A stretch of DNA of 64,000 nucleotides from Narcine bancroftii (lineage: Eukaryota). The first letter of the stretch is position 1. Each line of letters begins with the position of its first letter. The notes beneath the pieces were generated by a model that did no database searches, had not been told where the DNA came from, and saw only the letters and a list, made by a program, of their open reading frames with translations. The stretch covers positions 7,812,001 through 7,876,000 of the forward strand of contig NC_091474.1 of NCBI RefSeq assembly GCF_036971445.1. Reading direction: 5' to 3'. Position numbers and translations under genes: made by a program. Of the stretch, positions 10,018 through 62,279 are shown piece after piece.

Positions 10018-10058
10018 TGAGCAAAGTTCAAGTCACATGCTCCTGTCAGGGTATAAAA
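10018..10058 (+). promoter_or_regulatory. Rh gene core promoter: HNF4-like DR1 element and TATA box
   Basis: TGAGCAAAGTTCA at 10018-10030 and TATAAAA at 10052-10058, about 125 nt upstream of the ATG at 10182. Confidence 0.55.
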
Positions 10059-10181
10059 GTGCAGGTTCAGGGGCTCCCATCAGCCAGTCAGCGCCAAGGA
10101 CGGGGAAACTGGTGCAAAGAGACCCTTGGCCAAGTATCTGCACAGTCGGTGGAGCGTTTGCAGTCCAACCTCAGGGGGGAG

Positions 10182-28120: not shown

Positions 28121-28129
28121 TCCCTATGT

Positions 28130-39341: not shown

Positions 39342-39947
39342 ACCATGGTGCTTTACGATCGTGCAATGTATACAATTACACATGTAAAACTCCATTCCTG
39401 CAGGTGGGGACTTTGTAATCTAACAATTAATTCTATTTTGTATTTTCCTTTTTGCATTTATCATTCTCTCAATCAAACTTCTCCCAGTTTTTCCTTTTTC
39501 ATTTTCTTTTGGGTACATCTCCGTTTATTTCACCATTTTTCTCCACTACTGTTTCTCTATTTATTTTTCATTCCTTAAAACCAGTTCACAGATGATGTGG
39601 ACAATTAGTGTTGTGCATCAATGTTCCAGACCACCCCACCACCCCCCGCCCTCCCCACCATCACATTGGCCTCGTGCTGAAACAGCTTGAAATTTACAGT
39701 TTCACAATATTTTCAAGCTGGAGGAAATATAAAATGTCCAATGAACCGGAAACGAGCTCCCTGACTCAGTGAATAGAGAGTTATCCACACCAGGCACGGC
39801 ACGGCAAGACTGGCAAATACTAATTTATGTACAATGTTAACAATGATTTAATATGTGGGATGAAAGTAGGAGTTATATACAGTAGATAGGAATGCAGCAA
39901 CATTAAATGTGGATCGTGTTTGGGCCAAGGGATGCTATTGTTTTCTT

Positions 39948-40130
39948 TCATCCTATCCGGCGACAGCTTTTACAGGGTCCAACAAATAACTTTTCCCAAC
40001 AGAAATACAAGCTCGTGACTGTTTTCAGCTGCTCCCTGTTTTTGCCTCTTGCTTTTAGTTTTCTGTGCTTCTTTCTTCTTTTTTTGTGGTCTGAACGATG
40101 GACGTTACATCTCGTGTTTCTATACAATTG
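39948..40130 (-). CDS. c20orf204: C20orf204-like / IL-7-like cytokine, coding exon 5 (last)
   Basis: Acceptor TATCTTTCAG, 183 nt, phase 0. Encodes QLYRNTRCNVHRSDHKKRRKKHRKLKARGKNREQLKTVTSLYFCWEKLFVGPCKSCRRIG*. CWEKLF matches the recalled human C20orf204 C-terminus. Confidence 0.85.
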   Translation of the reverse strand, partial: QLYRNTRCNVHRSDHKKRRKKHRKLKARGKNREQLKTVTSLYFCWEKLFVGPCKSCRRIG

Positions 40131-40403
40131 CTGAAAGATAACCGAAAGATAAGCTGTTCAAAATTTTAATGTGCGTAGCAGGAACTTGGTTCACTTAAAG
40201 TTGGTCAAGAAAAGCTGATGGCCCAAGGGATTTGATTGCATTCACTGGACACCCATGAAAATACATTTGTTATATAGCATTAAATCTTTAATTGACAATG
40301 TAAAATTTAATCGTACTCCAGATTAATTTATGCAAAATGCACACAAATAAAGATCATGCATCCTACCCAGATGGCATTTAGTTTGATATATCACCTGTTA
40401 ATA

Positions 40404-40630
40404 GGAACATCGGAAGTAGGAACAGGAGTAGGCCAAAAATGGCCCATCGAGCCTGTTCCGTCATTCAATAAGATCATGGCTGATCTAATTTATGACCTAA
40501 CTCCACCTACCTGCCTTTTTCTCCCCATATCCCCTAATTCCTCTATCATGAAAAAAATGTATCTAACCGAATTTTAAATATGTCTAATGAAGCAGCCTCA
40601 ACCACTTCCCTGGATAGAGAATTCCAAACA
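40404..40630 (-). mobile_element. CR1 LINE 3' end
   Basis: GAAGTAGGAACAGGAGTAGGCC...CATTCAATAAGATCATGGCTGATC. Confidence 0.65.
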
Positions 40631-42094
40631 TTCAAGAGAGAATGCATTGTGTGAGGGCAGCTATTGTGATAATGTTGACAATAATCTTCCATATGTCATT
40701 ACGTACGATTATTCAGACAGATGACAAGTGATGGTGGTGTTACCTGATTTATAAACTGTAGAATGTGACAGCAATGTTCAAAAAAAATTATAAGCTAATT
40801 GATGGGGGGAACTTTTCAAACTAATAAACAAGGATAACACTTGGACAAGTGCGAAATGGGAGAAAAGAATAGATTTAGTAAGTGCGAACAATAGCTACCT
40901 GACATGACGAGATGGTCAATAAAAGGGAATGCAGCTGATAATGGTGGAAATGGAGTTTGATAAATTGTCGCATGACATTTTAGACATCGAGATTGAAGAC
41001 CGTGAAATAAAAGCATGGGTGGAAAATAAGAAACTGTAGCAGTTAAATTACATTTTCTAGGCGGTGTTTGATTTTCTTGATGATGTTTGATGAACTCAGG
41101 ACAAATAATCTAAATTTCAGATACATTTGATTTGGAAGCATGATTAACTGGGAGGATCACGTCCAGAGACATCAGTAACAGTGACAGGACACATTGGCAT
41201 AAGGCACTTCTGATCGGAGTAATCAGAACATGATGCAAAGATAAGTAATGCCTTACCCAAACATCTGAAACAACTCAGCAAAAAATTCTATCTAAAAGGG
41301 ATAGAAATTTTTCTGTTTGCAAATTAGAATGTTTCTATATAAAAAAACCTCCTGTCCCCAGGTGGCCACCTTTTGATGTATTTCATCTAAGTGCTGAGTG
41401 GAGGAGTGGCTTTTGAGCTGGGCCTGTTTCCAGGCTTTAATGTTGTGTCTGATGATTGTTCTCAGGCCTCACCTATTTATTTGGTTTGAGGCAGGTAACT
41501 CGCCTAGCATGGGAATTCCATTTTCAGATTCCTCCCTCACAAAACAGGTTTGAATTAGGGGTGGCGTCTGATCACAATGTCCATGGAACTGACACCACTG
41601 CTCTCTTTGGCCCTGGAAGTAGCTTCTTTGTTCATTTCAAACAAAACTAGTTGCGCCAGATTCATTGGCTGTTATGAGGACAACTGAAGCATTCACAATA
41701 GAAAGGCTGAACATCTGCCTAACTTATATTTACTGCAACACAGAGTAAGGCCATTTAGCCAAATGATCCCATATCATCTCCGAGAAGAGCAATCCTTTCA
41801 GTTCCATTCCTTTATTTCCCTGTAGCCCTGCTACTCATTCATTCTCTCATGCCATCAAACTATTGTCACTTTCCTACAGCAGGGGCAGTTTACCAATATA
41901 TCTTTAGGATATGGGAGAAAACATGAGGAACCAATGGAAGAATGTGCCATATGCTATGCAGACATCACCTCAGGTCTGCATCATACTAGGGTCCCTGGAG
42001 ATATGAGGCTGGAGGGCTAAATACTGAGGTACTATGCTGCCTGTAAAGTAAGCTCAACGGGCATTGCAGCTGCTTTCCTACAGTCCTTTATTTA

Positions 42095-42480
42095 AGAACA
42101 GGAGAAATAGGAGCAGGACTACGCCAACCGGACTGTGGGGTCTGCTCCGCCATTCAATTAGATCATGGCTGATCGGATGATAGGCTAATCTGCCTTTTCC
42201 TCTTATCCCTCAACTCCCCCAACTACCTATGTAAAAAAAATCTACCCTTGTCTTAAGTGGGAAAAGTATTGTCCAAAATCATCTCAGTCCAAAATCTATT
42301 ACTCTAAGTCTTGAGGCTTTGTCCCCTCATTGTAGTCTCCCCCACCAACTTGTGTACCTCTGTCTTATCTATGCCTTTCATAATTTTATACATTTCCACA
42401 AGATCCCCTTTTATCTTCCAAATTCCAGTGAGATCAGTCCCAAACAACCCAATCTCTCATTTGCTAACCCATACCCTAAC
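42095..42480 (-). mobile_element. CR1 LINE 3' end
   Basis: AAGAACAGGAGAAATAGGAGCAGG...CATTCAATTAGATCATGGCTGATC. Confidence 0.6.
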
Positions 42481-43229
42481 ACCTCTTTGAGATGACCACC
42501 CAAGAGACCTAAAGTAAGGCTGAAAATTTGGCAGAAGATTACACAGTTAATAGATTGGTTGTCAGTAATCCTGCTGTTAATCGATGTGCCCCTCTTCCTT
42601 TATGTGCCGAAGAAATGGATCTGATGGCTCTTAAGTATCAATTACTGCTAATATGTGAGTATTTTGTTTTGCTGCAAAACATGTTGATCAACGAAGCGGC
42701 TTGGAACTTGTCATTGTCATGTAATTTGGAACCAAAATGGACTTCATAGTTTTAGGGCATGGGGGATAGTGGTTGTAGTGACAGGGAAGGAATGTTATTC
42801 TGCTACATTCATGTACGCACCTGACATTCCAAACAATTGGTGCAAAGCAAATCAGCTAATAATTTAGGTGCATGAAGCAGTGCCTCATGGCAATGGCTAA
42901 CAGCCAAAAAGTTGCAACAAATTGGACCAAAGACAAGTTCTCATTCCCCACTGCAGTGTATTGGAAATTTAGGCTCAGTTTGCACTTTTCAAGTGGTTAT
43001 ACTTTGCAAAATAACCACATTCATAAAGGAAGGGTAGCATTTCTCTTCAATATCCTGACCAGAGATATTTTGTAGAAAATACATATATTTTGTTCACGGA
43101 TAGTGTGATGCCTGGAGGATGGTTGCGATGTTTAACTGGATTCTGAAAGCGTTTCTTTAAAGCTTTAGCTGGAGGTTTGGATGAAATCTAATGTCGTTAC
43201 ATTGTTTAAGAAAGATGTCAATAATCATT

Positions 43230-44250
43230 TTGAAAATTATAGACTGGTGAGCCTGACACCATGTTATTGGAAGATATTCTAAGAGACTGTATAAGGGATA
43301 GTCAAGGTGGCTTTGTGCATGGTTTGTCATGTCTAACTAATCTTGTAGAGATTTTCAAGGAGGCTACCAGGAAAGATGATGAAGGAAAGGCAGTGGATGC
43401 TGTCTCATGGTAAGCCTTTAATAAGGCCTTTGACAAGGATCTGCATGGGAGGTTGGTCAAGGAGGTTCAGCTGCTCAGTATTCAGGTGGAACATTGTATT
43501 ACAGTCATTGTACTGGTTGGTCTGCCTCTGACACTGTAACTCCTCCCCTCCAGGATTCCTGATAAAGGATGTATCGCCCAATGCCCTCCCTCAGTACTAC
43601 TTGGAACTGGGCTAACAGTATGTAAGAAATGGCTACGTTTATAGCGATTAAAGCCTTTTAATCTCGACTTCTGTCTGTCGGGTCTAATTGATAGCGCTAC
43701 AGGTAGTAAATTGGACTTGACATTGGCTTTGCGGGATAATCCAGAGAGTGGTGGTAGATGATTGCCTCTCTGACTGCAGGCCTGCGACTAGTGGTGTGCC
43801 TCAGTGATCAGTCCTCGATCCATATTGTATATATCTCATCGATCACACTAATAATGTGATATATTGGATCAGCAAATTTGCAGATGTGGGGGGGGGGGGG
43901 GGGGGGAGGTGCAGTGGACAGCGAGGAAGGCTTTCAAAGCTTGCAGAGGGATCTGGAGCAGCTAATAAAATGGCCTGTAAAATGACAGGTGGAATTTAAT
44001 GCAGACAAGTATGAGGTATTGCATTTTGGGAAGACACACCAGGGTAAGACTTGCATGGTAAACAGTAGGGCACTGTGGAGAAAGGTAGACAGAGGGAATA
44101 GATTTGTATACTTTCTTGAAAGTGGTATCACAGCTAGATAGGCTTATAAAGAGAGCTTTTGGCATGTTGGCCTTTATAAATCAGAATGTTGAGTATAGGA
44201 GCTGAGATGTTATGTTGAAGTTGTATCAAATATTGGTGAGGCCATGAAAC
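43230..44250 (+). mobile_element. CR1 LINE fragment containing a solo LTR (~43485-43701)
   Basis: AAGGCCTTTGACAAG (KAFDK), AGTGGTGTGCCTCAG (SGVPQ) and AGCAAATTTGCAGAT (SKFAD). The insert ends GCGCTACA. Confidence 0.75.
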
Positions 44251-44889
44251 TACTTAAGGAGGAGATTCAGAAGATGCCCTCATTCAGAATAACTAATACA
44301 GTATATGTCATCTGCTGGCTTACTGCCAAATTTGTTTTCTTTTTAAATTTGTGAATCACAGAACTACAAAATTAATTCTGCTTGAAAATTACACATTAGT
44401 GGGCCATGACGTATCTATTTATCCATGGGTAAATATTTTTCAAGAGCATCATTCCCAGGAGAAATGGGAGATGACCGTAGGATGGACGATTCATGAAAAA
44501 CATCTGTAGAATAGAGGGCGGTCGGGATATTAGGTGCTGGATGATAATTCAAACAGAAAATGTTGGGAATACTGAAAGTCTAAAACAAAACAAGAAACAC
44601 TCAACAGCTCAGGCAGCATCTGTGGAGGGAGAAAAAAAGAGGCAGTGTTTCAGGACTTCTATTGTAATTTAGATGGTTGTTTGCCATCAATATTATGGTG
44701 ACCAGTAGCTTTTCAGTCTTGGGTAAATGTACTGGGTTAAGGATGGCGGGTAGAGAAGGACGATTAGGTTTTCATGAAATGGATGAGAGTGAAAGAGTGA
44801 GAAATCCTGATGTATCAGAGGAACAGGGAAGTAGATGCTGATTATGTCAATAGAAGCATTGAAATGAAGTTTAGCGAAGATATATTTTG

Positions 44890-45040
44890 CAGAAGCTGAA
44901 ACATAAGATTCTGTTGTCACCGTGGTTAAGTGAAAAAGCACACAAATGCTGGAGAAACTCAGCAGGTCAAACAGGGCCTTTATGTAGCAAAGGTGAAGAT
45001 ACATCATCAACTTTTCGGGCTTGAGCCCTTCATCAAGGTG
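44890..45040 (-). mobile_element. Penelope-type pseudo-LTR module with hammerhead motif
   Basis: Minus strand reads CCTTGATGAAGGGCTCAAGCCCGAAAAGTTG...TGAGTTTCTCCAGCATTTGTGTG. Related modules at ~1-60, 1770-1885, 22135-22350, 29750-29865, 36600-36735, 52430-52520 and 60115-60420. Confidence 0.7.
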
Positions 45041-45911
45041 AGGAAGATAGGTTTTCTTCCTGTGTGAGCTCTAGAAGGGAGATGATAGGAGTTGGGAATT
45101 ATTGGAGAGATATTGAAATAGGGAATTTTTGCAAAATGCCCACTATATTTTAATGAAATTTCCTAATGACAATTTCACATGATCTTGATTTCTTTAAAAG
45201 TATAAATCATGATTATTACAATCATTTTTTTTTTTAACATTTAATATTTCCAATGACAAAAATGTAACATTTGGCATTGGAATGTATTGGTAGTGAATGG
45301 AACAAAAGGCATTATTCCTTGATATAGGGAATAACAAGAGCAGGAATAAAATATGCAATTGTTAAGGGTGAACAGGCAGGAAAATGATACATTGAAGGCA
45401 TTAGGTGAGAGAGAGAAGGTGAGTGGAAGAGGCACCGGAGGTGGTACGAAGATAAAAAGGAAAATCAACTCCCCCATTTCTCATGGGTGCATATTAATTG
45501 TTTGTAATGTTATCTTTCTCTGAGCCACCGAAGAGAAAATCCTTCAAAATATCAATGTCTCCTTGCAATCCCCATGAACCTTGAGAACTTATAAGTGGAT
45601 AGAGGGAGTTGGAGAGAATCAGCATCAGGCACAGGATTAGGATATGGGAAAGGGTGAAAGGAGATAGAAGGATCAAGATGATAACCTTAAGTAGGCCTTG
45701 GGTAAATGTGGAGCAGAGAGCACAATGCCACCTCTCTTTGAATGAAAAACTGCCAGGAACTTAATTACAGTGTACTTGAGATCAGACAGTTATAGTTTAG
45801 ACATGATAGGGAAATGGGATGAAAATAGACTTTGGGAAGAAAGTCCTGATTGTTCCAGGAGGAGAGTTCATTTTCAGGACTTTTAAAAGGTGATAGGCAA
45901 CTGTTACCAAC

Positions 45912-46064
45912 CTGGTGCACTTTGTTACAGTGACATTTTATCACAGATTCCATTTGGTTACAAATCTTGCACAAGGTTGAATGTTCGGGGTTCGTTGCAG
46001 CGCAGTTGACTTGACTTTTTAGGAATAGACTCATACAATAAATTGACTGAAGTATCCTTTGTTC
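45912..46064 (-). CDS. c20orf204: C20orf204-like / IL-7-like cytokine, coding exon 4
   Basis: Acceptor TGTGTTTTAG, donor CAG/GTTGGT, 153 nt, phase 0/0. Encodes EQRILQSIYCMSLFLKSQVNCAATNPEHSTLCKICNQMESVIKCHCNKVHQ (compare recalled human EHSILLSI...EAVMRRHCRTLRQ). Confidence 0.82.
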
Positions 46065-47177
46065 CTAAAACACAAAATATAGAAAACGCATTTAGTTTTT
46101 AAAAATGATTCTATTGCAGATTACTATTGACACAATTTTTAAAAAACAATTCCTTTACAGAATGTCAGCATGACAGGAAATTCCTGTGTCTCTAATTGCC
46201 ACAAGCTAAGGAGACAGGTTAAGAATCAACCAGAGACACACAGGAGATTGCAGCTGCTGGAATCTGAAGCAAAACATTTTTCTGGACGAACACAGTGCTG
46301 AGTAAACATCAGTAGGAGACCATTCTTTGTCTTGTACAGATGCTACTTGACTGGCTGAGTCCCTCCAGTTGATTGCGTTTGACTGAAGAATCAACCACAT
46401 TTGTAGGTCAGGGTCCTCCCTTGAAGGATAGAAATGAACCAGAAAGATTTATACAACTTTTTATGGTTCATCTTAGAGAGTATTCAAACTGAATTCCAAA
46501 CTGATTTAATATCCCAAGTTAAAATTCCTAACTACTGTGGTCAGATTTTAACTTGTGTTTCTGAATCAATGGTCCAGAGCTCTGTCTGCTGGTTGAATAA
46601 CTTAACCACTATACTACCGCACCAATGAAACTTTTCATTCCATTCTAACAACTCTTCTTTCTGGTTCAAGTTAATGGCACCAGTTTACCATAACCTTTTT
46701 CCTACCTATCCTGAGGCAGTCACTCTATGGGCAGTTTTAGCTTCTGACATGGACAGGCTTGAGCTGGATATGATGGAAAAATATAAACATTCAATCCTAG
46801 CATCAGACAGATCTCCCTCCATTTCTTAGATTGGTGATTAGATTCGAGACTGCAAACCCAATCTTCATCTCTGGGACTGTCGATCAATTACAGATGGCTG
46901 GAAACTGAATGAAACTCCAAATCGTGAAGAGTCATCAAGACGACTGAGACAAATTGAGAGTGTGGACAAAAGATATGTCAAAAACAGTCAAAATGTTATT
47001 GACTTTAGGAAATAAAAAAGCAAAAGGAACATGTGTTACTTAAACGGTGTTTGATGAAGAAGAATTGAATGTTAACATGTAGTCACAGCAAGCAGAAAGA
47101 AAAAAAAATCAATGAAACCATTTTCTAATTTGACAAATTAGAAATTCTTAATGCTGTACTTTTTTTTCCAACTGTAC

Positions 47178-47252
47178 CTTATTAGATTGACAACTAAAGA
47201 TTTTTGGATGTTTCAGCATTTCATAACTTTCAGAAATTCCTGTGTCATTTCT
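47178..47252 (-). CDS. c20orf204: C20orf204-like / IL-7-like cytokine, coding exon 3
   Basis: Acceptor CATCTTTTGCAG, donor AAG/GTACAG, 75 nt, phase 0/0. Encodes RNDTGISESYEMLKHPKIFSCQSNK. Confidence 0.8.
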
Positions 47253-47344
47253 CTGCAAAAGATGAAATGTTAAGTGTAAATTTGTTTTTTTTTAAATTAA
47301 ATTTGTATAATGTCATAATGTACAAAATATTTTTATGTACATAC

Positions 47345-47490
47345 TAGGACTCTTAATTCATCAAAAATTACTGCTTTATAATTCTCTAGGATGACACCAA
47401 TCTTGCACTTGTTCGCTTTACACTTGCATGTGACTGAAGTCATTTGGGTCAGCAGGAGGAGGAATACACTGGTCGCAAGCCTTGGGCAAA
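47345..47490 (-). CDS. c20orf204: C20orf204-like / IL-7-like cytokine, coding exon 2 (signal peptide + helix A)
   Basis: Acceptor TTACTTTTCTCTAG, donor CTA/GTATGT, 146 nt, phase 1/0. Encodes (V)CPRLATSVFLLLLTQMTSVTCKCKANKCKIGVILENYKAVIFDELRVL (compare recalled human CSVPDVLRHYRAIIFEDLQ). Confidence 0.85.
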
Positions 47491-47657
47491 CTAGAGAAAA
47501 GTAACACAAGAGGAAATAATCACTTTTGCACGATTAATGTTTTTTTTTCCAGTTTCACACATCATCAGCCAAGTTCACATGCAAATGAAGAAATGTCAGC
47601 ACAGAGGCAGCAAACTGGCACAATTTTGCTGGTACAAAGTGCTTCACCAAAATTAAT

Positions 47658-48000
47658 TACAGTAGTCCCCTCTTATCCATGGCCCCCCAGCAGATGCCTG
47701 AAACTGCAGAGAGCACCGAACCCTATATATGCGCTACTTAACATGATATGTTCTGTGAAAATGGGTGTCATGCGATGTGGACATTGTGCGATATATACTT
47801 AGCAAAGCTATACGTGATACTGTAGTGTACTGTAAACTTTATTTGTAAATAGAGATCAGTATGGGGACCCACATGGAGCTGTGGGCAGAGAGCAGGGCAG
47901 TGGGATCAGTGTGGGGACTGATACAGGACTGTGGGGAGAGTGCGAGGCAGTGGGATTAGTTGGGACTGATACAGGACTTTGGGGAGAGAGCAGGGCACTC
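47658..48000. mobile_element. Tigger-like DNA transposon end followed by a degenerate ~49-bp repeat
   Basis: TACAGTAGTCCCCTCTTATCC terminus. About 3 copies of GTGGGGAGAG..GGCAGTGGGAT....GGGACTGATACAGGAC at 47860-48000. Confidence 0.45.
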
Positions 48001-49589
48001 GGATGAGTTTCGGACCACGGTTGAGTGTGGTAACATGAAAAGAAAAACCACAGATAGGTGAGGCGGGGGGGGGGGGGGGGGGTGGGGGAATCCACTGTAT
48101 TCTTATTTAGCCATCCCTGCCCTATCCTTGGAACCGTTGATTTTTTTAAAAATTTTTTAGAGATATACAATTCCATTTTAAGTCTGGCAAAAGCTTACTA
48201 ATTTAAAGGGTCATTCTGCATCTTCTATCCTGTATTGAAAATGTGTAGCAGAAGGGCAAATTAAGATAAGTTTGCTCATTTGAAACTTAGGCTTTGCCTC
48301 TGTTTCCAGTAGGTCAGATGAGCCATGAAATCAGTCAATTAGAATAACTAGAATTGACTTGCTTACGTTTGGATAAGTATAGTTTTTCAACACTAAATGA
48401 AATTGTATGCGAAAATAAGAGTATAATGCCTATTCTCAGGAAAATTGTTCAAGAGAAAGAAATTGTTACTGAAAATGTTAGGCTAGATTAATCACATAAT
48501 CTATTCATTTAATTAACATATACATTAATCTAATGCAGATAAGGAAATTATGAGAATTTCAAAAATAATCATTTTGCAGATGATTTAACAATCAGGACCC
48601 TACTGTAAACTAGAAAAAAGCTGTTGTAAAATTTACTATTTAACAAAGGAAAAAGAATTAAGACACCAAAAGTTCTGAAACAACAATGACCTTATTTGGC
48701 ATTTACGCTTAATATTTTTGTTAGTAACACTTCATAAATGGGAGAGGCAGAATAAATCTGTCCAATTCCAAGCAAAGTGCACTATAAGACAGCTTCCCTA
48801 ATCTGCGGCTAAGCAGTAATACTTGACAAACAGGTAAATATTACTTTAAGTAGTTACCTTCCAGAAATCCCTGGAGGTTCAAAAATTTTAGACCATCTTT
48901 TGATTGTTTCAGTTGTCGTACATCCCGTACAATCTAGATGTGCAAATGGTTCATTATTTTTGTTCCGTTTAGAGAGCCTAGATTTCTCCCCACGGTTCAA
49001 ATTGTGCGTGTAACAGAGTTGTAACCTGAGTAAGAGACTCCAAAGAGTTTCTTGAGTCAGAATTAAGCCAAATGACTCAATTTCATTGAGAACTTCAAGA
49101 TGTGTTTGAAACATCATGCAAGTCATTGCATGCAAGTTGAAGATCAGTGCAGCCAGCAAGCCCAGAAATAGATTATGTGAGTTTAAATGATAATCATATG
49201 GAAAACCAGTTGTGTTTTTTTAAACATATGTGCATCTATCATAAAATTGAACTCGACAGAATTCCACTATCGGACAAGCATTTTTCTTGATTCCTTTGTG
49301 TGTCATCAGCCTGACTGACAGACATTGAAGCAAGAATTGCCATCTATGTCCTTTATTTTTACTTCCCAGAAAATCAAAAGTAAAATGCTACACAAAATCA
49401 GCAAGGATATATGAATTAAAGAGTCCTGCATAGGATACTGATTTGCTCCTGGGTGCACATGCCTAACTGCATTTCCATTGCTGTGAATATTTGTTACAGA
49501 ATTGTTGGGTCTCCAAACCCTTATTGCAGATTGTGTTTTTATTCATTCAAGGCATGTGAGCTTTAATCGATAATCTCAAATTGCTTGAG

Positions 49590-49900
49590 AAGCTGGTGGC
49601 GAGCTGCCATCTTGAGCCACTGGACGGTGTCCACTCCCTTTTGCAGTGCTTTATGCTCAGGGGTATTGGTGTCCCCATACTAGACCATGATGCAACTGGT
49701 CAACACTTTCCACCACGCCTCTGTCAAAATTTGCCGAGGTTTCCGTTGTCGGACCAAACCTCCACAAACTCCTGAGGATGTCAAGCCAGTATCGGGCTTT
49801 CTTCACAATCCCATTAGTGTGCTGGGTCCAGGAAAGATCCCGAGATAGTGACTCCCAAGAACAAATTTGCTCACCCTCTCCACCTCTGATCCATCAATGT
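49590..49900 (-). mobile_element. Rex-type LINE fragment
   Basis: GGGCTTTCTTCACAATC...GGGTCCAGGAAAGATCC matches Rex-like segments elsewhere in the window. Confidence 0.5.
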
Positions 49901-50434
49901 TGTTTGGGAGAGAGTTCGAGGATTTTGACCCAGTGGTCACAAGATTTCCAAAGCAGGATGGGGCTTAGGAACCAATCATAGCATTGAGCTGTTTTGACTT
50001 CTACTTAAATGAGGAGTCCACGCTCTGCTGTGTCTCGAGGCCACTTGTTTGTTGTGGTGGAGAGGTGTATGGTCATAAACACTTGTTTCGCCTCCCCTGT
50101 GTTTTCTCTGCTGTTGCTCTGGCTGCCATGGAGACTGCTCCCTTTGCGGTGCAACTCCCTTCCGTAGTTGCCATCAGTATTTAACACAACACTGTTGATA
50201 CAACTACCCTAATGATGCCTTGAATGAAGATTACATGAATTTAGCAATTTTGTAGGAGTTTTAAAGCTGGCATTCCTGCCCAAGGGGGTTGTGGAAGCTT
50301 CATAGCAAAGCCAAAAAGATTTTTTGATAACATGGGCATTGAAGGGAATTGAATTGGAAGGTAGCACTGAGGTACAAGATCAGCAATAGTTTTACTTTCC
50401 TCTTTCGGGCTTCAAGCTGAAACCATGGTTTCAT

Positions 50435-50680
50435 TTTTAAAATTTAGACATACAGTGCGATAACAGGCCATTTCATTCCACGGGACCCTGTTTCACCTAA
50501 TTTACACCTAGTTTCCCTACATCCTCAGTGCATTTTGAATGGTGGGAGGAAACCAGAGCCCCTGGGGAAAACCCACACAGACTCACGGAAGAATACACAA
50601 ACTTCTTACAGACAGCGTGGGATTCAAACCCCAGTCCCAATCACTGGCGCTGTGCTAACCGCTACACCAACCATGCCACT
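50435..50680 (-). mobile_element. V-SINE/HE1-like SINE
   Basis: GGGAGGAAACCAGAGCCCCTGGGGAAAACCCACACAGACTCACGGAAGAATACACAAACT, plus a B-box-like GGATTCAAACCC. Confidence 0.75.
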
Positions 50681-51764
50681 CTGTAGCGCGGCAAATGAAG
50701 AGGAAACAGTTTCTAGGATTCAGTCAGAAATTCAGTTGTACGGAGATCTGAGTGCGGAGTCATCTGCAGCTGAGTTTTATATCGGCATACTGAAGGATAT
50801 AGGTTGGATTAAAGTAACACAGGAGACAGCATGTGTTACGTTAACACTTCTTTCATCCCCACTGATGCTGCTCGACCCCAACAGGTTCTTCCAGCAGACT
50901 GACTGTTGCTTTTGGTTTGACTAAAGTTTCTTTCTTTAAAACCTTTTATCAATATGTATGTAAATAGTAGAAGTAACAGGATTTCACAGCAGTACAGTGT
51001 CTACCTTTTATTATCTGGACATGAATCCCAAGCCAATAAAATATCTATCTAAAAGTGAATACATTTTCTTTTGTTTATGAAATATTCAACAACCGTTATC
51101 TAATTAGATATTTAATTTGATGTTCATAACAGTTAAGTATGAGCACACAAATTACTGCTTTAATTGCACCTTAAAACGGACAACCACTTTTTTTTCCTCC
51201 AAATATCCTGAACCAAAATGCCTTCTATTTTGAAATAAAGTGATATTTTGAAATAAAGTGAAAAACCTGTAATAGACATTTAATTTTCTTACTATTTTCA
51301 ATTGGGCTTGACCATTATCTTATTAGCTCCATTCCTCAATCTTCAGATGGCGCGTTCCCTCCCTTCTATTGACTCCTGCATGCATTATTTCCTCACTCCT
51401 CCCGACCCCAATGCTGGCTACCAACCGCGTGATGTTTTATCTGCAAACTTGATAATGCTCAAAATTGCGTTAAAATAATAAAAAAGTTATGCTTTTTAAA
51501 TGAGATCCACAGAAAACTGGGATGAGCAGCAAGAGAAGATGGAATGAATGTTAGAAAAGAAAGAAATAAGAGAGGGAGCAGCAGAGAACGGTTGGAGGAA
51601 TGAGAGAAGGAAGATATTGTGTGTGTCCGTCCATGTGAGCATGTGAAGACATTAATCAGCATTTCTGAATAGTTTCTCTGTCCACCTCTCTCTCCCATAT
51701 TCTGCTCCTCTACCCCACATCTTCTCCTCCATCTCCTTTCTCACTCTTGCTTCACTTCCTCTGC

Positions 51765-52200
51765 GACTTTGACTTTGGCTTGGCTTCGCGGACGAAGATT
51801 TATGCAGGGGTAATGTCCACTTCAGCTGCAGGCTCGTTTGTGGCTGACAAGTCCGATGCGGGACAGGCAGACACGGTTGCAAGGGAAAATTGGTGGGTTG
51901 GGGTTGGGTGTTGGGTTTTTCCTCCTTTGTCTTTTGTCAGTGAGGTGGGCTCTGCGGTCTTCTTCAAAGGAGGTTGCTGCCCGCCGAACTGTGAGGCGCC
52001 AAGATGCACGGTTGGAGGCGAGATCAGCCCACTGGCGGTGGTCAATGTGGCAGGCACCAAGAGCTTTCTTTAGGCAGTCCTTGTACCTCTTCTTTGGTGC
52101 ACCTCTGTGGCCAGTGGAGAGCTCGCCATATAACACGATCTTGGGAAGGCGATGGTTCTCCATTCTGGAGACGTAACCTAACCAGCGCAGTTGGATCTTC
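51765..52200 (-). mobile_element. 5'-truncated RTE LINE (3' end)
   Basis: Encodes KIQLRWLGYVSRM...CNRVCLSRIGLVSHKRAC and carries the family tail. Confidence 0.9.
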
Positions 52201-53894
52201 TGTATTTGCTCTCCATCTTCCAACTTATTCTTCTGCCCCCTTCCTTCCTCATCACTGTCCCTCTGTGGCAGGCAAATATTGACCTGGCACTCACTACCAA
52301 GATAGGAGGAAGCCATGGGGTTTATTTGAATTCTGAGAGGATTGTTGTTGAGAAGGAATGTCTTGATCTGAGCCTGATTAGATGGGAGAGTCCAAGATTC
52401 AATCCAACGCTGTTATAGGAATACAGTAAAAACACAAAAATGTCGGAGGAACTCCGCAGGCCTCGCAGCATCCACAGGAAGTAAAGATATATAACTGACA
52501 CGGAGCCCTTCTTCAAAGTATTATGTACATCTGAAACCCAAGTCAAAAGTGCAGGGCAGGAGGCTATTGTAAAAACAAGAAAAGAAACCTGAATTCTGCT
52601 TTCTCATTAGTACACATGAAAATAACTTTAAACATCTACATTTATTATCTTATTAGTCGTGTGTGCTAATGGAAATTAATTCACAGTTGTAACTAAAAAT
52701 ATTTGAGCAAACACAATTAGTTGAAAAATACTCACCTTTCTTTCCTTCACACCTAAAATCCTTCTGCAAATAGGCAAGTTCATGGATCCAGCAACAGGTC
52801 TCACCTGCCACAGGACCTGAGAGAAGATTCTGGGGAATTTCACCAAGCCTCTCTGCCACATTGGACTCCACACAGAGTCCAGCGGATGTGCAGAGAGTCG
52901 ATGACTTCCGCATTCCCAAAAAATATTTAAACACATTCAGTGCACATAAACAGTGCTTCTTTGCTTGCTAAGAAATGCTAGACTCTATAAACCAAAAAAT
53001 GTGCAGTGGATTGTATGTAACTAAATAATGCCTGTAAAGCTTGAATCTGGATATGTTTTTCATAATGCTGTTACGAAGCCCAATTAATTATTTTGCTGAA
53101 TAATTTTGTTCATCCAACATTATGGTTTCTCTGTAACTAGAAAATAGCGTGATTATCTTATTTGGATAAGCCCAAATTACTTGGACAAAGTTCAAGTATT
53201 GGACAGTATAAAATTATTTATATAGCTGTATGAAATATACTTTTGTCAGAATAAGTTGCATGTTTTCCCACATGCAGGAAACAATTAAACAGTAGTTAGT
53301 ACATGATAAAGATGCAGAACACTTTAAGAAGACATACCGAGAGAACCGAATATGCTAACATTGCCACACACAAGTATCTTTTCCACCATTGAGAAAGATC
53401 CCCATTAAGTAACTTATGGAGTGGAACAAGAGTGGACTATTCATCCTTATAAATTTATTTCTGTCATTCAGTTGATCATTCCATTTAGTCACTGTTAGCT
53501 GGTTATACTTTCACAATAAAATTCTTCAAATTTCAGTTTTGTATTTTTCAATTAACCCAGCATTCTTTGCATTTCAAGAGTGTATTCCAGTTTCATTAAC
53601 AACAAGAAAAAGTGCTCCAGTTTGAAAGCTCTGCTCCCCTTGTTTTGAGTTGCTCCACTCATCTCCAATTGAATAAAAGACAATTTCAATCCAAGCAAAT
53701 ATCTACATCATTTAAAGCACCTCGGTTAAATCACTCTTCACCGGTCCAGACTCATGGAACTCAAACCAAATGTGTGTCCTGAATTTTAATCCTGGAATAA
53801 TTCTGGCAAGTTTGAAAACATGTGAATTTTCAAAATATGCATTGTTGGGTACACAAAGTGAGAGTAATAGTTCAGAAGGGGACCTGATCGAGAC

Positions 53895-54100
53895 TGAATA
53901 CTGATACAGTGTCGGCGATTGGGACCGGGGTTTGATTCCTGCACTGTCTGTAAGGAGTTTGTACGTTCTCCTTGTGTCTGCGTGGGTTTTCCTTGGAGGC
54001 TCTGGTTTCCTCCCATCCTTAAAAAGATACCAAGGTTGTTGGTCAATTGGATATAATTGGGGAGCAAGGGCTCATGGATGAAAGGGCCTGTATGTTGAAA
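53895..54100 (+). mobile_element. V-SINE/HE1-like SINE
   Basis: V core GGAGTTTGTACGTTCTCCTTGTGTCTGCGTGGGTTTTCC...GGTTTCCTCCCA. Confidence 0.75.
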
Positions 54101-55729
54101 AATGTTAAATTTATAACAAACATAACTTCCTCTATCTTCATATTCCAGTTTTGTTTAAATTGGAGATAATTATACTATTTTTGATTTTTTTTTTCCCACT
54201 TTATGTACTTGGCCACTTTTATCCTTTAAGTATTGGTGAGGCCTTTATTTTTCTGCAGCTCCTATTTCTTTACCATAAAAAATGTCTATATGCCTGGATC
54301 AAAATTGAATGGGTTATATAACATGCATGTATTTGTGTGTCCATATTACTATTTATTTTTAGGACATCTCCAGAATTTAACAGTACTTCCAAATTTACCA
54401 AGCACCTTTAGCAAGATAGCCTATACTTAATTCAAGCACCATCATTGTATGCAAATCCACTTGCTCTGATGGCCAACGTTAACTATTTGTTGTACCTGCT
54501 TTCAGTGACTAGTGCACATGAACAATCAAGTCCCAATGTGCATCCCAATTAAACCCCACAGAAATAATCGGCCACCTTTCTGCTTTACAGAATGAAATGG
54601 AAAGTTCTAATTCATCCATATTATACTACATTTGTGGTTTTTGCTAATTTAGTCTTGAAACTTCTGCATCTCTTGCAAAATTCATATATTCACCCAGTTG
54701 AACTCTCCTCAATCCTGCTCCCAACTCTTTTCATCTAAATCTATTGGCTTAGCTGTTGGTTTTCTCCTCTGTCACACGTTCACCCAGCTTCCTTTTAAAT
54801 ATTTTTATACCAAACATCGCGTCAACTCCCTGTGGTAATGCATTTCCCTCTTTCACCGCTCTTTGATTTCTTGGAGACTCTCTCATATTGACAGTCTCTA
54901 ATTGCACTCTTCTCCTTGAATGGAAACATTCCTTCTGCATCCAGTCCACTAAACCTGCTCATAGATCATCTCACATCCTGCTCAAGAAATGAGAACCAGT
55001 CTGTTCATCCTTTCCTCAGCCCTATCCCTTACATTTCTGGCGTCATCTTTGCAAATCTTTTCTGCACCCTCTCGAGTGCCTCTATATCTTTTTATCTTCT
55101 GATACTTTCCCATGCAGACTGATGTTTGGACTATGATCAACATGGCCTGCCCAACATATCTGACTGAATGCAATTAGGCCCTCAATGCTGAGGATGTGGC
55201 CTAGAAAAGCACTCTTGTGTTGGCTCCCTGAACCTTTCAATAAACGTGAAACCTTTCATTTTCTGGAGTGATAGGCAGCCCAGGTCTCAGAATCATTTAG
55301 GAGGTCAGGAATCACAGCTGCACAATACACCACAAGCTTTCTTCTGGGTCTAAGGCATTTATTTTCAAATATGCTTTTCCTCCATGAATCAAAAGCTCTG
55401 CTGGTGCTCTGATGCCATCATCCTTGACTCCCGAGATACGATGACCGGGCCAACATTTTCCATGGTCTGATCATGGAGAGTGCAGAAGATTCAAGGATGT
55501 GACCGTATAATTTTTGAAGACGAGCAGTATCCCTGCAGGGTCGCAGGGACATCCAGCCAAGAACCATTCAAAGTGGAGAAGATGCACTGGGGATGTTACT
55601 GAGAACATGCAGCCCAGAGCACACCAAGCCTGTGTAAGCAGCAGGAGTGATCCGCTTCACAATCTAACCATCTGCCCACCACATCCTGTCCACGTGTAGA
55701 GAAATCTGCAACTCTCGTGCGAGCTTTAG

Positions 55730-56930
55730 ACAAATGACGATCCACGTTATTGACATTGTACCAATAAACCAGCCAATGAAATACAACCAGCATCGACCGG
55801 AAATAAACAAAAATAGCGCTAGATACATTACAATAAAACAAGTGCAATTAAAAACCAAGCACAAACTGTTAAAAAGTTCTGATTTGACAATGCGAGGGCA
55901 GTCCCACTCAGCGCCGTAACATAGTCACAGATTCGTTTAGAAAATCCTTGAGCCGACTGTTGCGTGATCAAAGGTTTCTACAGCGTCTCCCCAATGGGAG
56001 AAGAGTGAACAGCACGTGATTCGGGTGTCTTGCATCTTTCCCTAGAGATATTTTCGACAGTAGGCAAATGGATTCCAATAATCCGTTGGGGCAGCTTTCA
56101 ATACCCGCTGGAGTGCCCTGCGATCTTGTGCAATACAATTCCCGTACCACCCCAAAATACCATATGTTAGCAGGCTCTCAAATGTACATCTATAGAAACC
56201 CAACTGTATCCTGGGACCGAGGTGGATCTTACTCATTCTCCTCAAAAGAAAGACCCTGTTGGGCCTATTTAATCAGAATTGAAGAATCGAAGGACCAAGT
56301 GAGATTTTCAGAGAGATGGATATTAAGGAATTTAAAGCTCGGTCAACGCTCCACCACCCATTGATGTAAATCGGGGTGTGAGTGTGACTTCTGGCATGCC
56401 TGAAGTCAACGACGTTCTCCTTGGTCTTCTGAGTGCCGAGTGTCAAGTTGTTATCAGCGCACCACAAGGCCAGATGCTGAACCTCATCCCTATAGGCCAT
56501 TTCATTGGCCCCTTTAATCAGGCCCACCACCGTGGAGACACCTACAAACTTGATAGTTAAATCTGTACTGTACATAGGAACACCGTCGGAAATAAAGAAG
56601 GAATACAAAAGGGGGCTCAACACTAAATCCTGGGGCATGCCGGTATTCAAGGAAAAGAAAATATTGCCCAGTGTAACAGATTGAGGTCTATTTGTTAGAA
56701 AGTCCAAAATCCAATGACCAGGGATGGGCTGAAACCATGCAGATGAAATTTTGTTAGAGAGGAGAACAGTGTTGAAAGCTGAGCTATTGTTGATGAGTGA
56801 CATTCTAACATAGGAGCTAGACCTGTCCAAATGAGACAAAGCAGAGTGAAGCACTGTCAAAATGGCATCCTTGGTTGACCTGTTAGTACGGTAGGCATGT
56901 TGATGCAATGGAAGCAAAGCATCTTCAATC
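55730..56930 (-). mobile_element. Rex1/Babar LINE RT region, degraded
   Basis: Encodes AYRTNRSTKDAI, WILDFLTNRPQSV, VLSPLLYS and AYRDEVQHLALWCADNNLTL. Confidence 0.85.
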
Positions 56931-58072
56931 CTGAGGGAATTACTAAAATGTCCTGTTATATTATGAAAACCAGAAGTGTATACAATAGTTTATCTGTACT
57001 TTTACCAAGATTCACTCCAGGTTTAGTTTTACTTCCCCAATGTTAAATACTTAGTTTCATACATGAGCACATTTTCTACATTTTTACTTTCTGTCCACAT
57101 TTTGCAACCACTATTTTCAATTTTGCTAACAAACATACAGAATTTATCAAGTAACTATTTCAAGTTTTCCAGTTCTTGACCAATACTTGGAAATAAAAAA
57201 TGGTAGCACTGTGTTTAGGTGACTGCCATATAACAGTTTTTAGGTATTAAAACACGGCATCCTTAGTTAAAAAATTTAGTTTGCAATGTGCCAAACTAGA
57301 CCTATTACCCACTAAACAGAAAGCAGAACTTACACGTAAGGATGTAGCTATACAATTGTTCAGCCTTACTTAAAAATGAGTGCAGAAGGGCCCTTCCTTG
57401 ATATACTCAGATAAACATAAATTGGAAAATTCTGTGTTAATTTAATGTATGTTAAAGATGTTAACTAAAAAAAAGTGATGACCATAAGACTCAGGATAAT
57501 ATTAAAAATAGAATCATTTTGTAATAGCTGGGTCGAACGGATTCTCTTCTGCTGAGGCTCTGCGATTGGTAGCTACAGAACCAATATCAGTGGCTTGGTG
57601 AACTGTCTCCATATTAAATGCTAACTGCCATGATAAAACTCTGCATGGATCTGTGAATTAACAAATATGTGAAGGATTTTTCTCTTGCTTAATAAATGTT
57701 AAGGACAATGTGCAGACTTGCACTACATAAAATGAACTGTAAAAGTGCACAGAAACTCCAGTTTATATTTCGAAATACAATGATGCAATTACATCCCTGT
57801 TAAAGGACAGTTGTGTGCTTGGCTTTGAATGTAGCATGAAATGTTGCAACGTTTAATGAACTAAATCTGAAATTTATAATTCTATATGATCTGGTTTCAA
57901 TTTGTCAGCAACAAGACTTCTAATTTTAAATAGGAAGACAAACATTTGAGATTATTGATTGACAGGCATTCCAGATCAAATTAATATTCAAGAAAATTAC
58001 ATTTCTTCAAAGAAAAAAAAAGCACAATTTCCAAAAGTCAAATGAGGCACAAAATGATATTCCTTTGCTTAC

Positions 58073-58082
58073 CATTTAGCAT
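58073..58082 (-). CDS. c20orf204: C20orf204-like / IL-7-like cytokine, candidate coding exon 1 (ATG CTA AAT G)
   Basis: Kozak-like ACCATGC and strong donor ATG/GTAAGC. The 10 coding nt end in phase 1, as exon 2 requires, giving MLNVCPRLAT... Confidence 0.6.
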
Positions 58083-58359
58083 GGTACACTGGATAATCCA
58101 CAATATTGTGAATCGAAGTAATTAATGATCATTGTCAAACTTCTTTGGTGCAACAGTTACAGCTCCGCAGATCCATGTACCTCTCCGAGTAAACACCGAT
58201 GTGATGCATTGTTTTGGCATTTAGATTAATCCTCTTTAGCTAACTTCATTATAAATCAGCTCTGGTTGCTGTTGTGCACTTTGTGCCATGACCAGAGAAA
58301 GAGACAGAAGTCACTGCTTACCCTCGATGTCATTCAGCTCAAGCTTCATTGACTTCAAC

Positions 58360-62126: not shown

Positions 62127-62279
62127 TTAAAAGGTATTTTTTATTTGAGCAGCTACAAGCATAAGAATTTCTCCAATTTTCCTTTGCCAGTTTCTGATGT
62201 CTTTGGATACTTCACACCACAGCTCTCCATGTCTTGGTTCTGCATTTTCACACCGTCGTTTTACTTCTTCATGCTGTTC
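62127..62279 (-). CDS. prpf6: Pre-mRNA processing factor 6, last coding exon (rest of gene lies right of the window)
   Basis: Acceptor GTTTCATCCACAG. Encodes [50 protein letters not shown], matching the vertebrate PRPF6 C-terminus ([21 protein letters not shown]...IKNTF). Confidence 0.95.

What the first reader, a model, noticed from the sequence alone, without database searches (positions are those of the whole stretch)
39948..58082. Hidden five-exon gene encodes a candidate orphan IL-7/TSLP-family cytokine (C20orf204 orthologue)
Seen in sequence: five GT-AG exons of 10/146/75/153/183 nt (intron phases 1,0,0,0) join into an uninterrupted 188-aa ORF: MLNVCPRLATSVFLLLLTQMTSVTCKCKANKCKIGVILENYKAVIFDELRVL|RNDTGISESYEMLKHPKIFSCQSNK|EQRILQSIYCMSLFLKSQVNCAATNPEHSTLCKICNQMESVIKCHCNKVHQ|QLYRNTRCNVHRSDHKKRRKKHRKLKARGKNREQLKTVTSLYFCWEKLFVGPCKSCRRIG. 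It has a hydrophobic signal-like N-terminus and an NDT sequon. Recalled knowledge (to be verified): human C20orf204 lies directly downstream of PRPF6 on the same strand and shares these motifs. Human IL7 has a 10-nt first coding exon (MFH/V) and phase-0 downstream introns. Its motifs parallel this protein: QYESVLMVSIDQLL vs NYKAVIFDELRVL, CDANK|EGMFL vs CQSNK|EQRIL with the same exon boundary, and TCWNKIL vs FCWEKLF. Inference: this poorly characterised gene is a short-chain four-helix cytokine related to IL-7, and this divergent copy keeps the IL-7 resemblance clearly.
Basis: partly seen in the sequence, partly recalled or inferred. Interest (0 to 1): 0.92.

Follow-up and report, generated by a model that had tools for sequence, protein, structure and literature searches.

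The report
Overlooked sister gene of interleukin-7
This spliced ray gene is the counterpart of the poorly understood human gene C20orf204, and its sequence, predicted fold, exon pattern and chromosomal neighbourhood point to an ancient sister of the T-cell growth factor interleukin-7, so jawed vertebrates may carry an unrecognised immune signalling protein.

Summary
The five-exon gene is real (minus strand). All four junctions appear in contigs of 4 of 4 probable RNA runs (one study). It is not hidden: RefSeq already lists the same 188-aa protein as a C20orf204 homologue of an electric ray.

The cytokine reading gains real support. The family spans rays to marsupials, and a 54-sequence profile's best hit among 177,635 PDB sequences is human IL-7 (E 0.0022). 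The AlphaFold model's top 24 structural matches are all helical cytokines. IL-7 and TSLP tie there with IL-11 and CNTF, so the fold alone does not fix the subfamily. At this genome's IL7 position, beside ZC2HC1A, I found a separate predicted gene with matching exon phases and 10/146-nt first exons; the profile scores it 45.6 bits. Both genes sit among stathmin, PKI and TPD52 paralogues, which suggests whole-genome duplicates.

Verdict: an IL-7 paralogue (about 0.85), neither IL-7 nor TSLP itself. Secretion, receptor and signalling are untested; IL-7Rα use is about 0.55. It is a candidate for the unidentified il7r/crlf2 ligand predicted from zebrafish genetics (about 0.3). The papers found treat the human protein as nucleolar, or link it to interleukins or growth hormone.

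The parts
58073..58348 (-). Exon 1: at least 266 nt of 5' UTR (7 upstream ATGs) plus 10 coding nt (ATG at 58082)
   Evidence: (contig reaches 58348; joint 47490/58073 in 4 of 4 runs)
47345..47490 (-). Exon 2, 146 nt, phase 1 to 0: hydrophobic leader, invariant Cys32 and Tyr41, predicted helix A
47178..47252 (-). Exon 3, 75 nt: AB loop with the conserved N-glycosylation sequon (N54) and Cys73
45912..46064 (-). Exon 4, 153 nt: predicted helices B and C, invariant Ser84 and Cys123
39948..40130 (-). Exon 5 coding part, 183 nt: basic CD loop, helix D with invariant Cys172-Trp173-x-Lys175, stop codon
39420..39947 (-). 3' UTR (at least to 39420); candidate polyA signals at 39852, 39565 and 39529
62127..62279 (-). 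Last coding exon of the upstream PRPF6-like gene (synteny marker, not part of the cytokine gene)
   Evidence: identity of this exon as the PRPF6 C-terminus is by recall and by continuity with the Pfam PRP1_N hit; Pfam on the exon alone gave nothing useful

Best explanation
The gene is the cartilaginous-fish orthologue of C20orf204. It encodes a secreted, N-glycosylated, disulfide-bonded four-helix cytokine, a third branch of the IL-7/TSLP group, and most likely the whole-genome-duplication sister of IL7. SHOWN: splicing; conservation across jawed vertebrates; a hydrophobic leader; a predicted helical-cytokine fold; IL-7 as the closest solved sequence; a separate IL7-position gene with the same predicted exon phases; paralogous flanking genes. 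INFERRED: the leader is cleaved near residue 24. Cys32-Cys123 and Cys73-Cys172 pair, as IL-7's N-terminal/helix-C and AB-loop/helix-D cysteines do (IL-7 pairing partly recalled). Helices A and C bind IL-7Rα; helix D and the AB loop recruit CRLF2 or the common gamma chain; JAK-STAT5 is activated in lymphoid cells. The basic CD loop may bind glycosaminoglycans or be cleaved, as proposed for TSLP. Odds: IL-7 paralogue about 0.85; genome-duplication origin about 0.7; secreted ligand of an IL-7Rα-containing receptor about 0.55.
For: Family: 24 hits at E<=0.001 among 1.84 billion representatives, 22 of them non-chondrichthyan relatives, 1 a skate/ray relative and 1 a repeat false hit (P0031). They are named from sturgeon, arapaima, lungfish, caecilian, newt, turtles, alligator, birds, platypus and marsupials. 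A teleost-seeded search gave 44 rows, mostly further teleosts. In the 54-sequence alignment C32, Y41, S84, C123, C172, W173 and K175 are 54/54, C73 53/54, the sequon 50/54, and a hydrophobic leader 53/54. That profile against 177,635 PDB sequences: best hit human IL-7 3di2_A, E 0.0022, aligning the helix-A Tyr, the AB-loop Cys and the helix-D CW; next cytokine IFN-gamma at E 0.086. Pfam over the 54 members: TSLP is the most frequent family (5 of 54, best E 0.025), IL7 1 of 54 (E 0.32), none at cut-off. AlphaFold model pLDDT 68.1, pTM 0.61, helices 34-55, 75-95, 103-133 and 151-178. Against 48,161 chains the top 24 rows are helical cytokines: TSLP Z 9.6 and 9.2 (15% and 14% identity), IL-7 Z 9.2 (rmsd 2.8, 96 of 115 residues), versus IL-15 7.5, IL-4 6.2 and IL-2 5.6. 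IL7-position gene at G000:C5:282.287-282.315 Mb, tail to tail with ZC2HC1A: predicted exons 10/146/84/138/144 nt, phases 1,0,0,0, 173 aa. Profile scores are 38.0 bits (29-sequence; shuffles max 8.6), 45.6 (54-sequence) and 42.4 without cartilaginous fish; best chains of other peptides scored 12.5 and 9.4. Paralogous blocks: C15 has stathmin 5.12, PKI 5.48, this gene 7.85-7.87 and TPD52 family 9.56 Mb; C5 has TPD52 family 281.69, stathmin 281.97, IL7-position gene 282.29-282.31 and PKI 282.46 Mb. Human protein: EndoH-sensitive 24 and 26 kDa bands and partial ER co-staining (PMC7969625).
Against: No direct data on secretion, receptor or signalling. Foldseek gave no match at E<=0.001 for either model. 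ESM features rank IL-10-family clusters first for both queries (0.93); IL-7 was rank 10 (0.91) for the ray protein and not listed for the teleost one. The PDB hit came with the third of three profiles (negative), and TSLP was not hit at E<=10. The IL7-position gene is a genome prediction without RNA; its exons 2, 4 and 5 were picked with the profile; its exon 3 is ambiguous; and Pfam IL7 does not recognise its single exons (0 of 4). One unrelated peptide in the same 480 kb scored 15-16 bits. PMC7969625 reports the human protein mainly in nucleoli. No placental-mammal or Danio row was seen in my searches.
Confidence: 0.6

Rival explanations
1. An IL-7 paralogue by descent and a secreted cytokine, but it has switched to another class I receptor pair that does not include IL-7Rα.
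For: Only about 22% identity to the ray IL7-position protein. TSLP's receptor hot-spot arginines after the helix-D Trp (R149, R150, R153; PMC5382266) are matched only at W+2 (K175); W+1 is Glu or Gln in 52 of 54. No binding test was run.
Against: Both known family members use IL-7Rα through a hydrophobic helix A/C face (PMC7396566, PMC5382266). Helix A is strongly conserved in this family. Zebrafish genetics asks for a further IL-7Rα ligand (PMC6936713).
Confidence: 0.25
2. A helical cytokine of another branch (gp130-type long chain such as IL-11/CNTF, or IL-10/interferon type); the IL-7 likeness is general fold likeness.
For: IL-11, CNTF and CLCF1 have the highest structural Z-scores. ESM features rank IL-26, IL-22 and IL-20 first. 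PROST's main example for the human protein is somatotropin (PMC9992864).
Against: At sequence level IL-7 is the best PDB hit, 40-fold ahead of the next cytokine, and no gp130-type or IL-10-type chain appears at E<=10. The profile picks out the IL7-position gene of the same genome. Exon phases and flanking paralogues match that gene. TSLP and IL-7 have the highest structure-based identities among the top rows.
Confidence: 0.08
3. Mainly an intracellular, nucleolar protein that binds nucleolin and rRNA, as reported for human hepatocellular carcinoma; the cytokine fold is vestigial.
For: PMC7969625 (abstract, section 5 and passages): nuclear staining in 14 of 20 tumours, nucleolar localisation, nucleolin pull-down. 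A 2026 review repeats this (PMC13434451, passages). The basic loop could act as a nucleolar localisation signal.
Against: A hydrophobic leader, a sequon and four cysteines are kept across jawed vertebrates. The same paper shows EndoH-sensitive glycoforms and ER staining, and its main text has 0 occurrences of 'signal peptide' or 'secret'. Arg-rich overexpressed proteins commonly bind nucleoli (general knowledge).
Confidence: 0.07

Closest known systems
C20orf204 (LINC00176-encoded 189-aa protein) and its RefSeq 'C20orf204 homolog' entries
   Same: Same gene family: RefSeq name of this very protein, HMMER E 7e-21 to turtle and 3e-20 to platypus homologues, PRPF6 upstream on the same strand, similar length, one sequon, basic region.
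   Different: Papers found describe the human protein as a tumour-specific nucleolar lncRNA product. The ray protein has 15 Cys against 4-5 conserved ones. The human sequence itself was not retrieved here.
Interleukin-7 (PF01415; PDB 3DI2)
   Same: Best PDB sequence hit of the family profile; helix-A Tyr, AB-loop Cys and helix-D CW-x-K aligned; structural Z 9.2, rmsd 2.8. The predicted ray IL7-position gene has the same 10- and 146-nt first exons and phases 1,0,0,0 and sits in a paralogous block.
   Different: Different locus (PRPF6, not ZC2HC1A); a separate gene holds the IL7 position in this genome; about 22% identity to it; below the Pfam cut-off; receptor unknown.
TSLP (PF15216; PDB 5J11, 4NN5)
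   Same: Structural Z 9.2-9.6 with 14-15% identity; most frequent weak Pfam family (5 of 54); N-terminal and helix-C cysteines like Cys34-Cys110; buried helix-D Trp; basic CD loop.
   Different: Not at the WDR36 locus; not hit by the profile in the PDB search; lacks two of the three arginines that bind CRLF2. Tetrapods have both genes (TSLP distribution recalled).
gp130-family long-chain cytokines (IL-11, CNTF, CLCF1, IL-6)
   Same: Highest or tied structural Z-scores; long helices.
   Different: No sequence signal; structure-based identity 10-11%; mature chain about 160 aa with a long unstructured CD loop.

Membership tests
C20orf204 orthogroup | Sequence homology to named C20orf204 homologues | tested here: met
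   E 7e-21 (turtle), 3e-20 (platypus), 5e-17 (sturgeon); RefSeq names
C20orf204 orthogroup | Directly downstream of PRPF6 on the same strand | tested here: met
   PRPF6-like last exon about 4 kb upstream, PRP1_N hit about 40 kb upstream; the human arrangement is recalled
IL-7/TSLP group of class I helical cytokines | N-terminal hydrophobic leader | tested here: met
   Kyte-Doolittle 11-residue maximum >=1.8 in 53 of 54; the exception is N-truncated. SignalP was not available
IL-7/TSLP group of class I helical cytokines | Secretion | not testable with these tools
   Indirect only: EndoH-sensitive forms and ER staining of the human protein (PMC7969625)
IL-7/TSLP group of class I helical cytokines | Four-helix cytokine bundle | tested here: met
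   Two AlphaFold models; top 26 and top 24 rows of the wide structural search are helical cytokines; moderate confidence, Z 9-10
IL-7/TSLP group of class I helical cytokines | Closer in sequence to IL-7/TSLP than to other cytokines | tested here: met
   IL-7 best of 177,635 PDB sequences, E 0.0022; IL7-position gene 45.6 bits. Two shallower profiles found nothing
IL-7/TSLP group of class I helical cytokines | Reaches the Pfam IL7 or TSLP cut-off | tested here: inconclusive
   0 of 54 reach it, but the ray IL7-position exons fail too, so these models have little power here
IL-7/TSLP group of class I helical cytokines | Conserved helix-D tryptophan | tested here: met
   W173 in 54 of 54, aligned to IL-7's CW; role in IL-7 and TSLP from PMC7396566
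IL-7/TSLP group of class I helical cytokines | Disulfide pairing (N-terminus to helix C; AB loop to helix D) | tested here: inconclusive
   C32, C73, C123 and C172 conserved, three of them aligned at or near IL-7 cysteines; model coordinates could not be read
IL-7/TSLP group of class I helical cytokines | Pi-helical turn in helix A | tested here: inconclusive
   The three-state DSSP string shows 34-55 as unbroken helix and cannot show a pi turn
IL-7/TSLP group of class I helical cytokines | IL7-type exon layout (10-nt first coding exon, phases 1,0,0,0) | tested here: met
   Same as the predicted ray IL7-position gene; that model lacks RNA support; the human IL7 layout is recalled
IL-7/TSLP group of class I helical cytokines | Binds IL-7Rα and signals through STAT5 | not tested
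   No full-length receptor ectodomain was held, so no complex was predicted; signalling needs experiment
IL-7 orthologue | Located next to ZC2HC1A | tested here: not met
   Another gene holds that position on C5; synteny rule from PMC6936713
TSLP orthologue | Located next to WDR36; Arg triad after the helix-D Trp | tested here: not met
   WDR36 is on C1 (TSLP-WDR36 linkage recalled); only W+2 is basic

The most novel reading that the evidence does not exclude
C20orf204 is a third ligand of the IL-7 receptor system, born with IL7 in a vertebrate genome duplication and kept from rays to humans. It is the 'as-yet unidentified cytokine' that zebrafish genetics predicts to signal through il7r/crlf2 in thymic T-cell development, and in humans an unrecognised IL-7Rα ligand filed as a lncRNA peptide.
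Probability: 0.3. Interest if true: 0.95.

Novelty: new member of a known kind. Interest (0 to 1): 0.8.

Why it matters
IL-7Rα has two known ligands, IL-7 and TSLP, and the pathway is a drug target in asthma, autoimmunity and leukaemia. A conserved third family member in the human genome, now described as a lncRNA-derived nucleolar peptide, would change how that biology is read. It also supplies a named candidate for an open question. Lawir et al. 2019 (PMC6936713) predicted a missing il7r/crlf2 ligand in fish and reported finding no other IL-7-related sequence. Here teleosts carry this gene, and the ray has a CRLF2-like receptor exon but no TSLP that I could detect. Six of the 44 rows carry an automatic UniRef name 'Interleukin-7' although they belong to this family, so databases may be confusing the two genes.

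Tried and rejected
Single-sequence tests gave nothing:
- Pfam on the four larger exons, 0 of 4, and on the whole protein (two spurious hits).
- PDB sequence searches with the 6- and 29-sequence profiles found no cytokine.
- Foldseek gave no E<=0.001 for either model.
- The Atlas's own structure search gave only TM<0.5 non-cytokine rows.

Whole-genome Pfam searches:
- IL7: three hits at E 0.86-7.8, none at the IL7 position. The best (C8) was looked at and dropped.
- TSLP: 8 hits, best E 0.2, none at WDR36.
- IL-7Rα D1 (PF18447): two sub-threshold hits that do not look like receptor exons, so the ray IL7R was not located.
- zf-C2HC_2 missed ZC2HC1A, which was then found by motif scan.

TSLP near WDR36: 200 kb around its 5' end held only weak profile hits (best E 0.055-0.15). 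By eye the leading ones look like the reverse strand of LINE coding sequence. This is no evidence that TSLP is absent, because the profile does not detect human TSLP either.

The CRLF2-like exon at C16:200.54 Mb passes the Pfam cut-off (28.2 vs 27.3 bits). Its neighbourhood was not read, so CRLF2 versus IL2RG stays open; a second candidate on C17 is below cut-off. No complex prediction was run, for lack of a full receptor ectodomain.

Rejected idea: that the teleost rows named 'Interleukin-7' are true IL-7. A 35-sequence teleost profile scores ray C20orf204 58.3 bits and the ray IL7-position protein 14.7. The tree (34 rows, one long-branch outgroup) cannot test family membership.

Rows left out of the 54-sequence alignment were the repeat false hit P0031, models with aberrant or truncated ends, and near-duplicates.

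Three look-ups in earlier scan findings returned nothing. A search of PROST's two text supplements for the gene name found nothing.
Full report
1. OBSERVATION. The described exons are on the minus strand: 58082-58073, 47490-47345, 47252-47178, 46064-45912 and 40130-39948. All introns are GT-AG with phases 1,0,0,0, and the exons give a 188-aa frame with 15 cysteines and an NDT sequon. Four public runs hold the 3' end (guessed to be RNA, one study). In 4 of 4, one contig skips exactly these four introns; the longest reach 58348 at the 5' end and pass 39420 at the 3' end. The gene is real and expressed as a spliced transcript, but already annotated. A PRPF6-like gene ends about 4 kb upstream on the same strand.

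2. THE FAMILY. A six-sequence profile against 1.84 billion representatives gave 24 hits at E<=0.001, one of them a repeat false hit. Names cover sturgeon, arapaima, lungfish, caecilian, newt, turtles, alligator, birds, platypus and marsupials. A teleost-seeded search gave 44 rows, including salmonid, percomorph, eel and characin entries; no row is named Danio and many are unnamed. No placental mammal appeared, so the link to the human gene rests on RefSeq's naming and on features reported in PMC7969625. In 54 aligned full-length members, C32, Y41, S84, C123, C172, W173 and K175 are invariant, C73 is in 53, the sequon in 50 and a hydrophobic leader in 53. A run of at least 5 Lys/Arg in 10 residues precedes the CW motif in 53. 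This is the profile of a secreted, disulfide-bonded glycoprotein (inference).

3. FOLD. AlphaFold2 with 29 and 54 sequences gave pLDDT 61.8 and 68.1, with a leader helix and four bundle helices joined by long, poorly predicted AB and CD loops. Against 48,161 solved chains the top 26 and top 24 rows are all helical cytokines. For the better model: IL-11 Z 10.3, CNTF 9.8, CLCF1 9.7, 4nn5_A 9.6 (mouse TSLP, recalled), IL-7 9.2 (rmsd 2.8, 96 of 115), human TSLP 9.2 and IL-6 9.2. Rows within 1 Z unit are tied. Other short-chain cytokines score lower (IL-15 7.5, IL-31 7.5, IL-4 6.2, IL-2 5.6). These Z values are below the level at which the tool excludes a common helical arrangement, and Foldseek found nothing at E<=0.001. 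ESM features list only helical cytokines but rank IL-10-family clusters first. The fold says 'helical cytokine'; it does not fix the branch.

4. SEQUENCE LINK TO IL-7. The single protein and the two shallower profiles find no IL-7. The 54-sequence profile finds human IL-7 as the best of 177,635 PDB sequences (E 0.0022; next cytokine IFN-gamma, 0.086), aligning the helix-A tyrosine, the AB-loop cysteine and the helix-D CW. TSLP is not hit there, but it is the most frequent weak Pfam family (5 of 54; IL7 1 of 54; none at cut-off).

5. THE IL7 POSITION IN THE SAME GENOME. IL7 lies beside ZC2HC1A from sharks to humans (PMC6936713, passages). Stathmin, TPD52 and PKI family searches led to contig C5, where ZC2HC1A-like exons lie at 282.336-282.363 Mb on the minus strand. 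Among 17,643 six-frame peptides of 480 kb, the 29-sequence profile's two best hits (E 0.0028 and 0.11) lie on the plus strand just beyond its 3' end. They resolve into a GT-AG gene with coding exons of 10, 146, 84, 138 and 144 nt (282287033-42, 282290668-813, 282290899-982, 282303202-339, 282314775-918), phases 1,0,0,0, 173 aa. The window's gene has 10, 146, 75, 153 and 183. Scores: 38.0 bits (mature part 29.1; 2,000 shuffles each, maxima 8.6 and 10.9), BLASTP 22% over 180 residues, pairwise E 7e-7; 45.6 bits with the deeper profile; 42.4 without cartilaginous fish. Best collinear chains of other peptides scored 12.5 and 9.4. Caveats: this gene has no RNA support; three exons were found with the profile; exon 4 recurs in most of the top combinations of 999 but exon 3 has alternatives; Pfam IL7 misses its single exons; and with the deeper profile one unrelated peptide ranks second (15-16 bits). 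Its identification as IL7 rests on position and layout. It is a different gene from the window's: a teleost profile scores the window's protein 58.3 bits and this one 14.7.

6. PARALOGOUS BLOCKS. C15 carries a stathmin (5.12 Mb), a PKI gene (5.48), this gene (7.85-7.87), PRPF6 and a TPD52-family gene (9.56). C5 carries a TPD52-family gene (281.69), a stathmin (281.97), the IL7-position gene and a PKI gene (282.46). Human 8q and 20 are described as parts of the opioid-receptor paralogon from the two vertebrate genome doublings, with stathmins among the quartets (PMC2865548, passages). That IL7 lies on 8q21 and C20orf204 on 20q13 is recalled. The simplest reading is that the two genes are duplicates from that event. 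I did not build trees of the flanking genes, and these families have further copies elsewhere in the genome.

7. HOW IT MOST LIKELY WORKS. IL-7 and TSLP both engage IL-7Rα through a hydrophobic face of helices A and C. TSLP binds CRLF2 through helix D and the AB loop, has a Cys34-Cys110 bond and a basic CD loop with a furin site, and both bury a helix-D tryptophan (PMC7396566 and PMC5382266, passages). The family studied here keeps the matching cysteines, the tryptophan and a basic CD loop, and helix A is strongly conserved. I infer a secreted ligand of IL-7Rα plus CRLF2 or gamma-c, signalling through JAK-STAT5 (about 0.55). The helix-D motif CW[EQ]KL is closer to IL-7 than to TSLP's arginine triad, which argues against a TSLP-like grip on CRLF2. 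The ray has an exon that passes the Pfam CRLF2-like D2 cut-off; IL7R was not located, and no TSLP was detected (weak tests). No complex was predicted.

8. WHAT IS IN PRINT. 'C20orf204' occurs in 40 papers of the library (30 listed). Searches with 'interleukin' (9 papers), 'AlphaFold' (1), 'secreted' (11), 'cytokine/four-helix' (uninformative), 'PRPF6/TSLP/IL-7/synteny' and 'TSLP/crlf2/teleost/orphan' showed no title or abstract start that calls it an IL-7 relative; most of these I saw only as listings. PMC7969625 (abstract, section 5, passages) describes a nucleolar tumour protein, yet shows EndoH-sensitive forms and ER staining and never uses 'signal peptide' or 'secret'. PMC13434451 (2026 review, passages) still lists it as a lncRNA peptide. 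[quoted passage not shown] Six of 44 rows have an automatic UniRef name 'Interleukin-7'. PMC6936713 (passages) predicts an unidentified cytokine acting through il7r/crlf2 in zebrafish and found no second IL-7-like sequence; PMC1963337 (passages) reports a zebrafish tslpr. PMC9465101 (passages) added nothing specific. Subscription papers, patents, bioRxiv supplements and PROST's full hit lists were not visible and could hold an earlier claim.

9. VERDICT. Observation confirmed; interpretation supported with qualifications. It is a new member of a known kind: an IL-7 paralogue (about 0.85), not the orthologue of IL-7 or of TSLP. Interest 0.8: the gene is annotated and a cytokine fold was hinted at before, but the specific IL-7 kinship, the paralogon evidence and the link to the missing fish il7r/crlf2 ligand (about 0.3) make an open question directly testable.

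Noticed in passing
window 10017-11612 (+): Uninterrupted 531-aa ORF of the Rh/ammonium transporter family (PF00909, E 3.6e-72). It has no introns, like the elasmobranch Rhp2 gene (recalled), and is the next large ORF downstream of the cytokine gene. No SOX18-sized ORF (the human neighbour, recalled) was seen in the window.
   Followed up: partly
window 58083-58348 (-): The 5' UTR holds 7 upstream ATGs in 266 nt; the nearest uORF (at -50) overlaps the start codon out of frame. Heavy uAUG load limits translation of IL-15 and IL-7 in mammals (recalled).
   Followed up: partly
window 58172: A 12-nt deletion in the 5' UTR in the contig of run X2 only; probably an allele.
   Followed up: no
L082:8315-8575 (-) (G000:C5:282188315-282188575): An 86-aa open frame between the stathmin and the IL7-position gene scores 15-16 bits on the leader/helix-A/AB-loop part of the profile (E 0.005-0.01 in 480 kb). 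It has no Pfam match and a dispersed repeat abuts its 5' end. Chance, or a remnant of another family copy.
   Followed up: partly
L061 (G000:C15:5.478 Mb): A fourth, divergent PKI-family gene near the stathmin on C15; human has three PKI genes (recalled).
   Followed up: no
L092:1501-1623 (-) (G000:C16:200.54 Mb) and L097 (C17:6.745 Mb): Exons of class I cytokine receptors with CRLF2-like D2 scores of 28.2 (above cut-off) and 21.9 bits; CRLF2 versus IL2RG or IL13RA not resolved.
   Followed up: partly
P0057, P0065, P0067, P0069, P0070, P0079: Teleost members of this family carry the automatic UniRef name 'Interleukin-7', although they group with C20orf204 and not with the ray IL7-position gene. 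A turtle member (P0036) is named TCEA2.
   Followed up: yes
P0008/P0009 and P0007: The skate isoforms differ by one Gln at the start of exon 5 (tandem acceptor). The bamboo-shark model has different first and last parts and lacks the CW motif, so it is probably mis-predicted.
   Followed up: no
window about 24690-25470, and 26540-28750, 38900-39420, 51770-52410: A tandem repeat that reads as a repeating 23-residue peptide in three frames, and several LINE reverse-transcriptase fragments, one inside intron 1.
   Followed up: no
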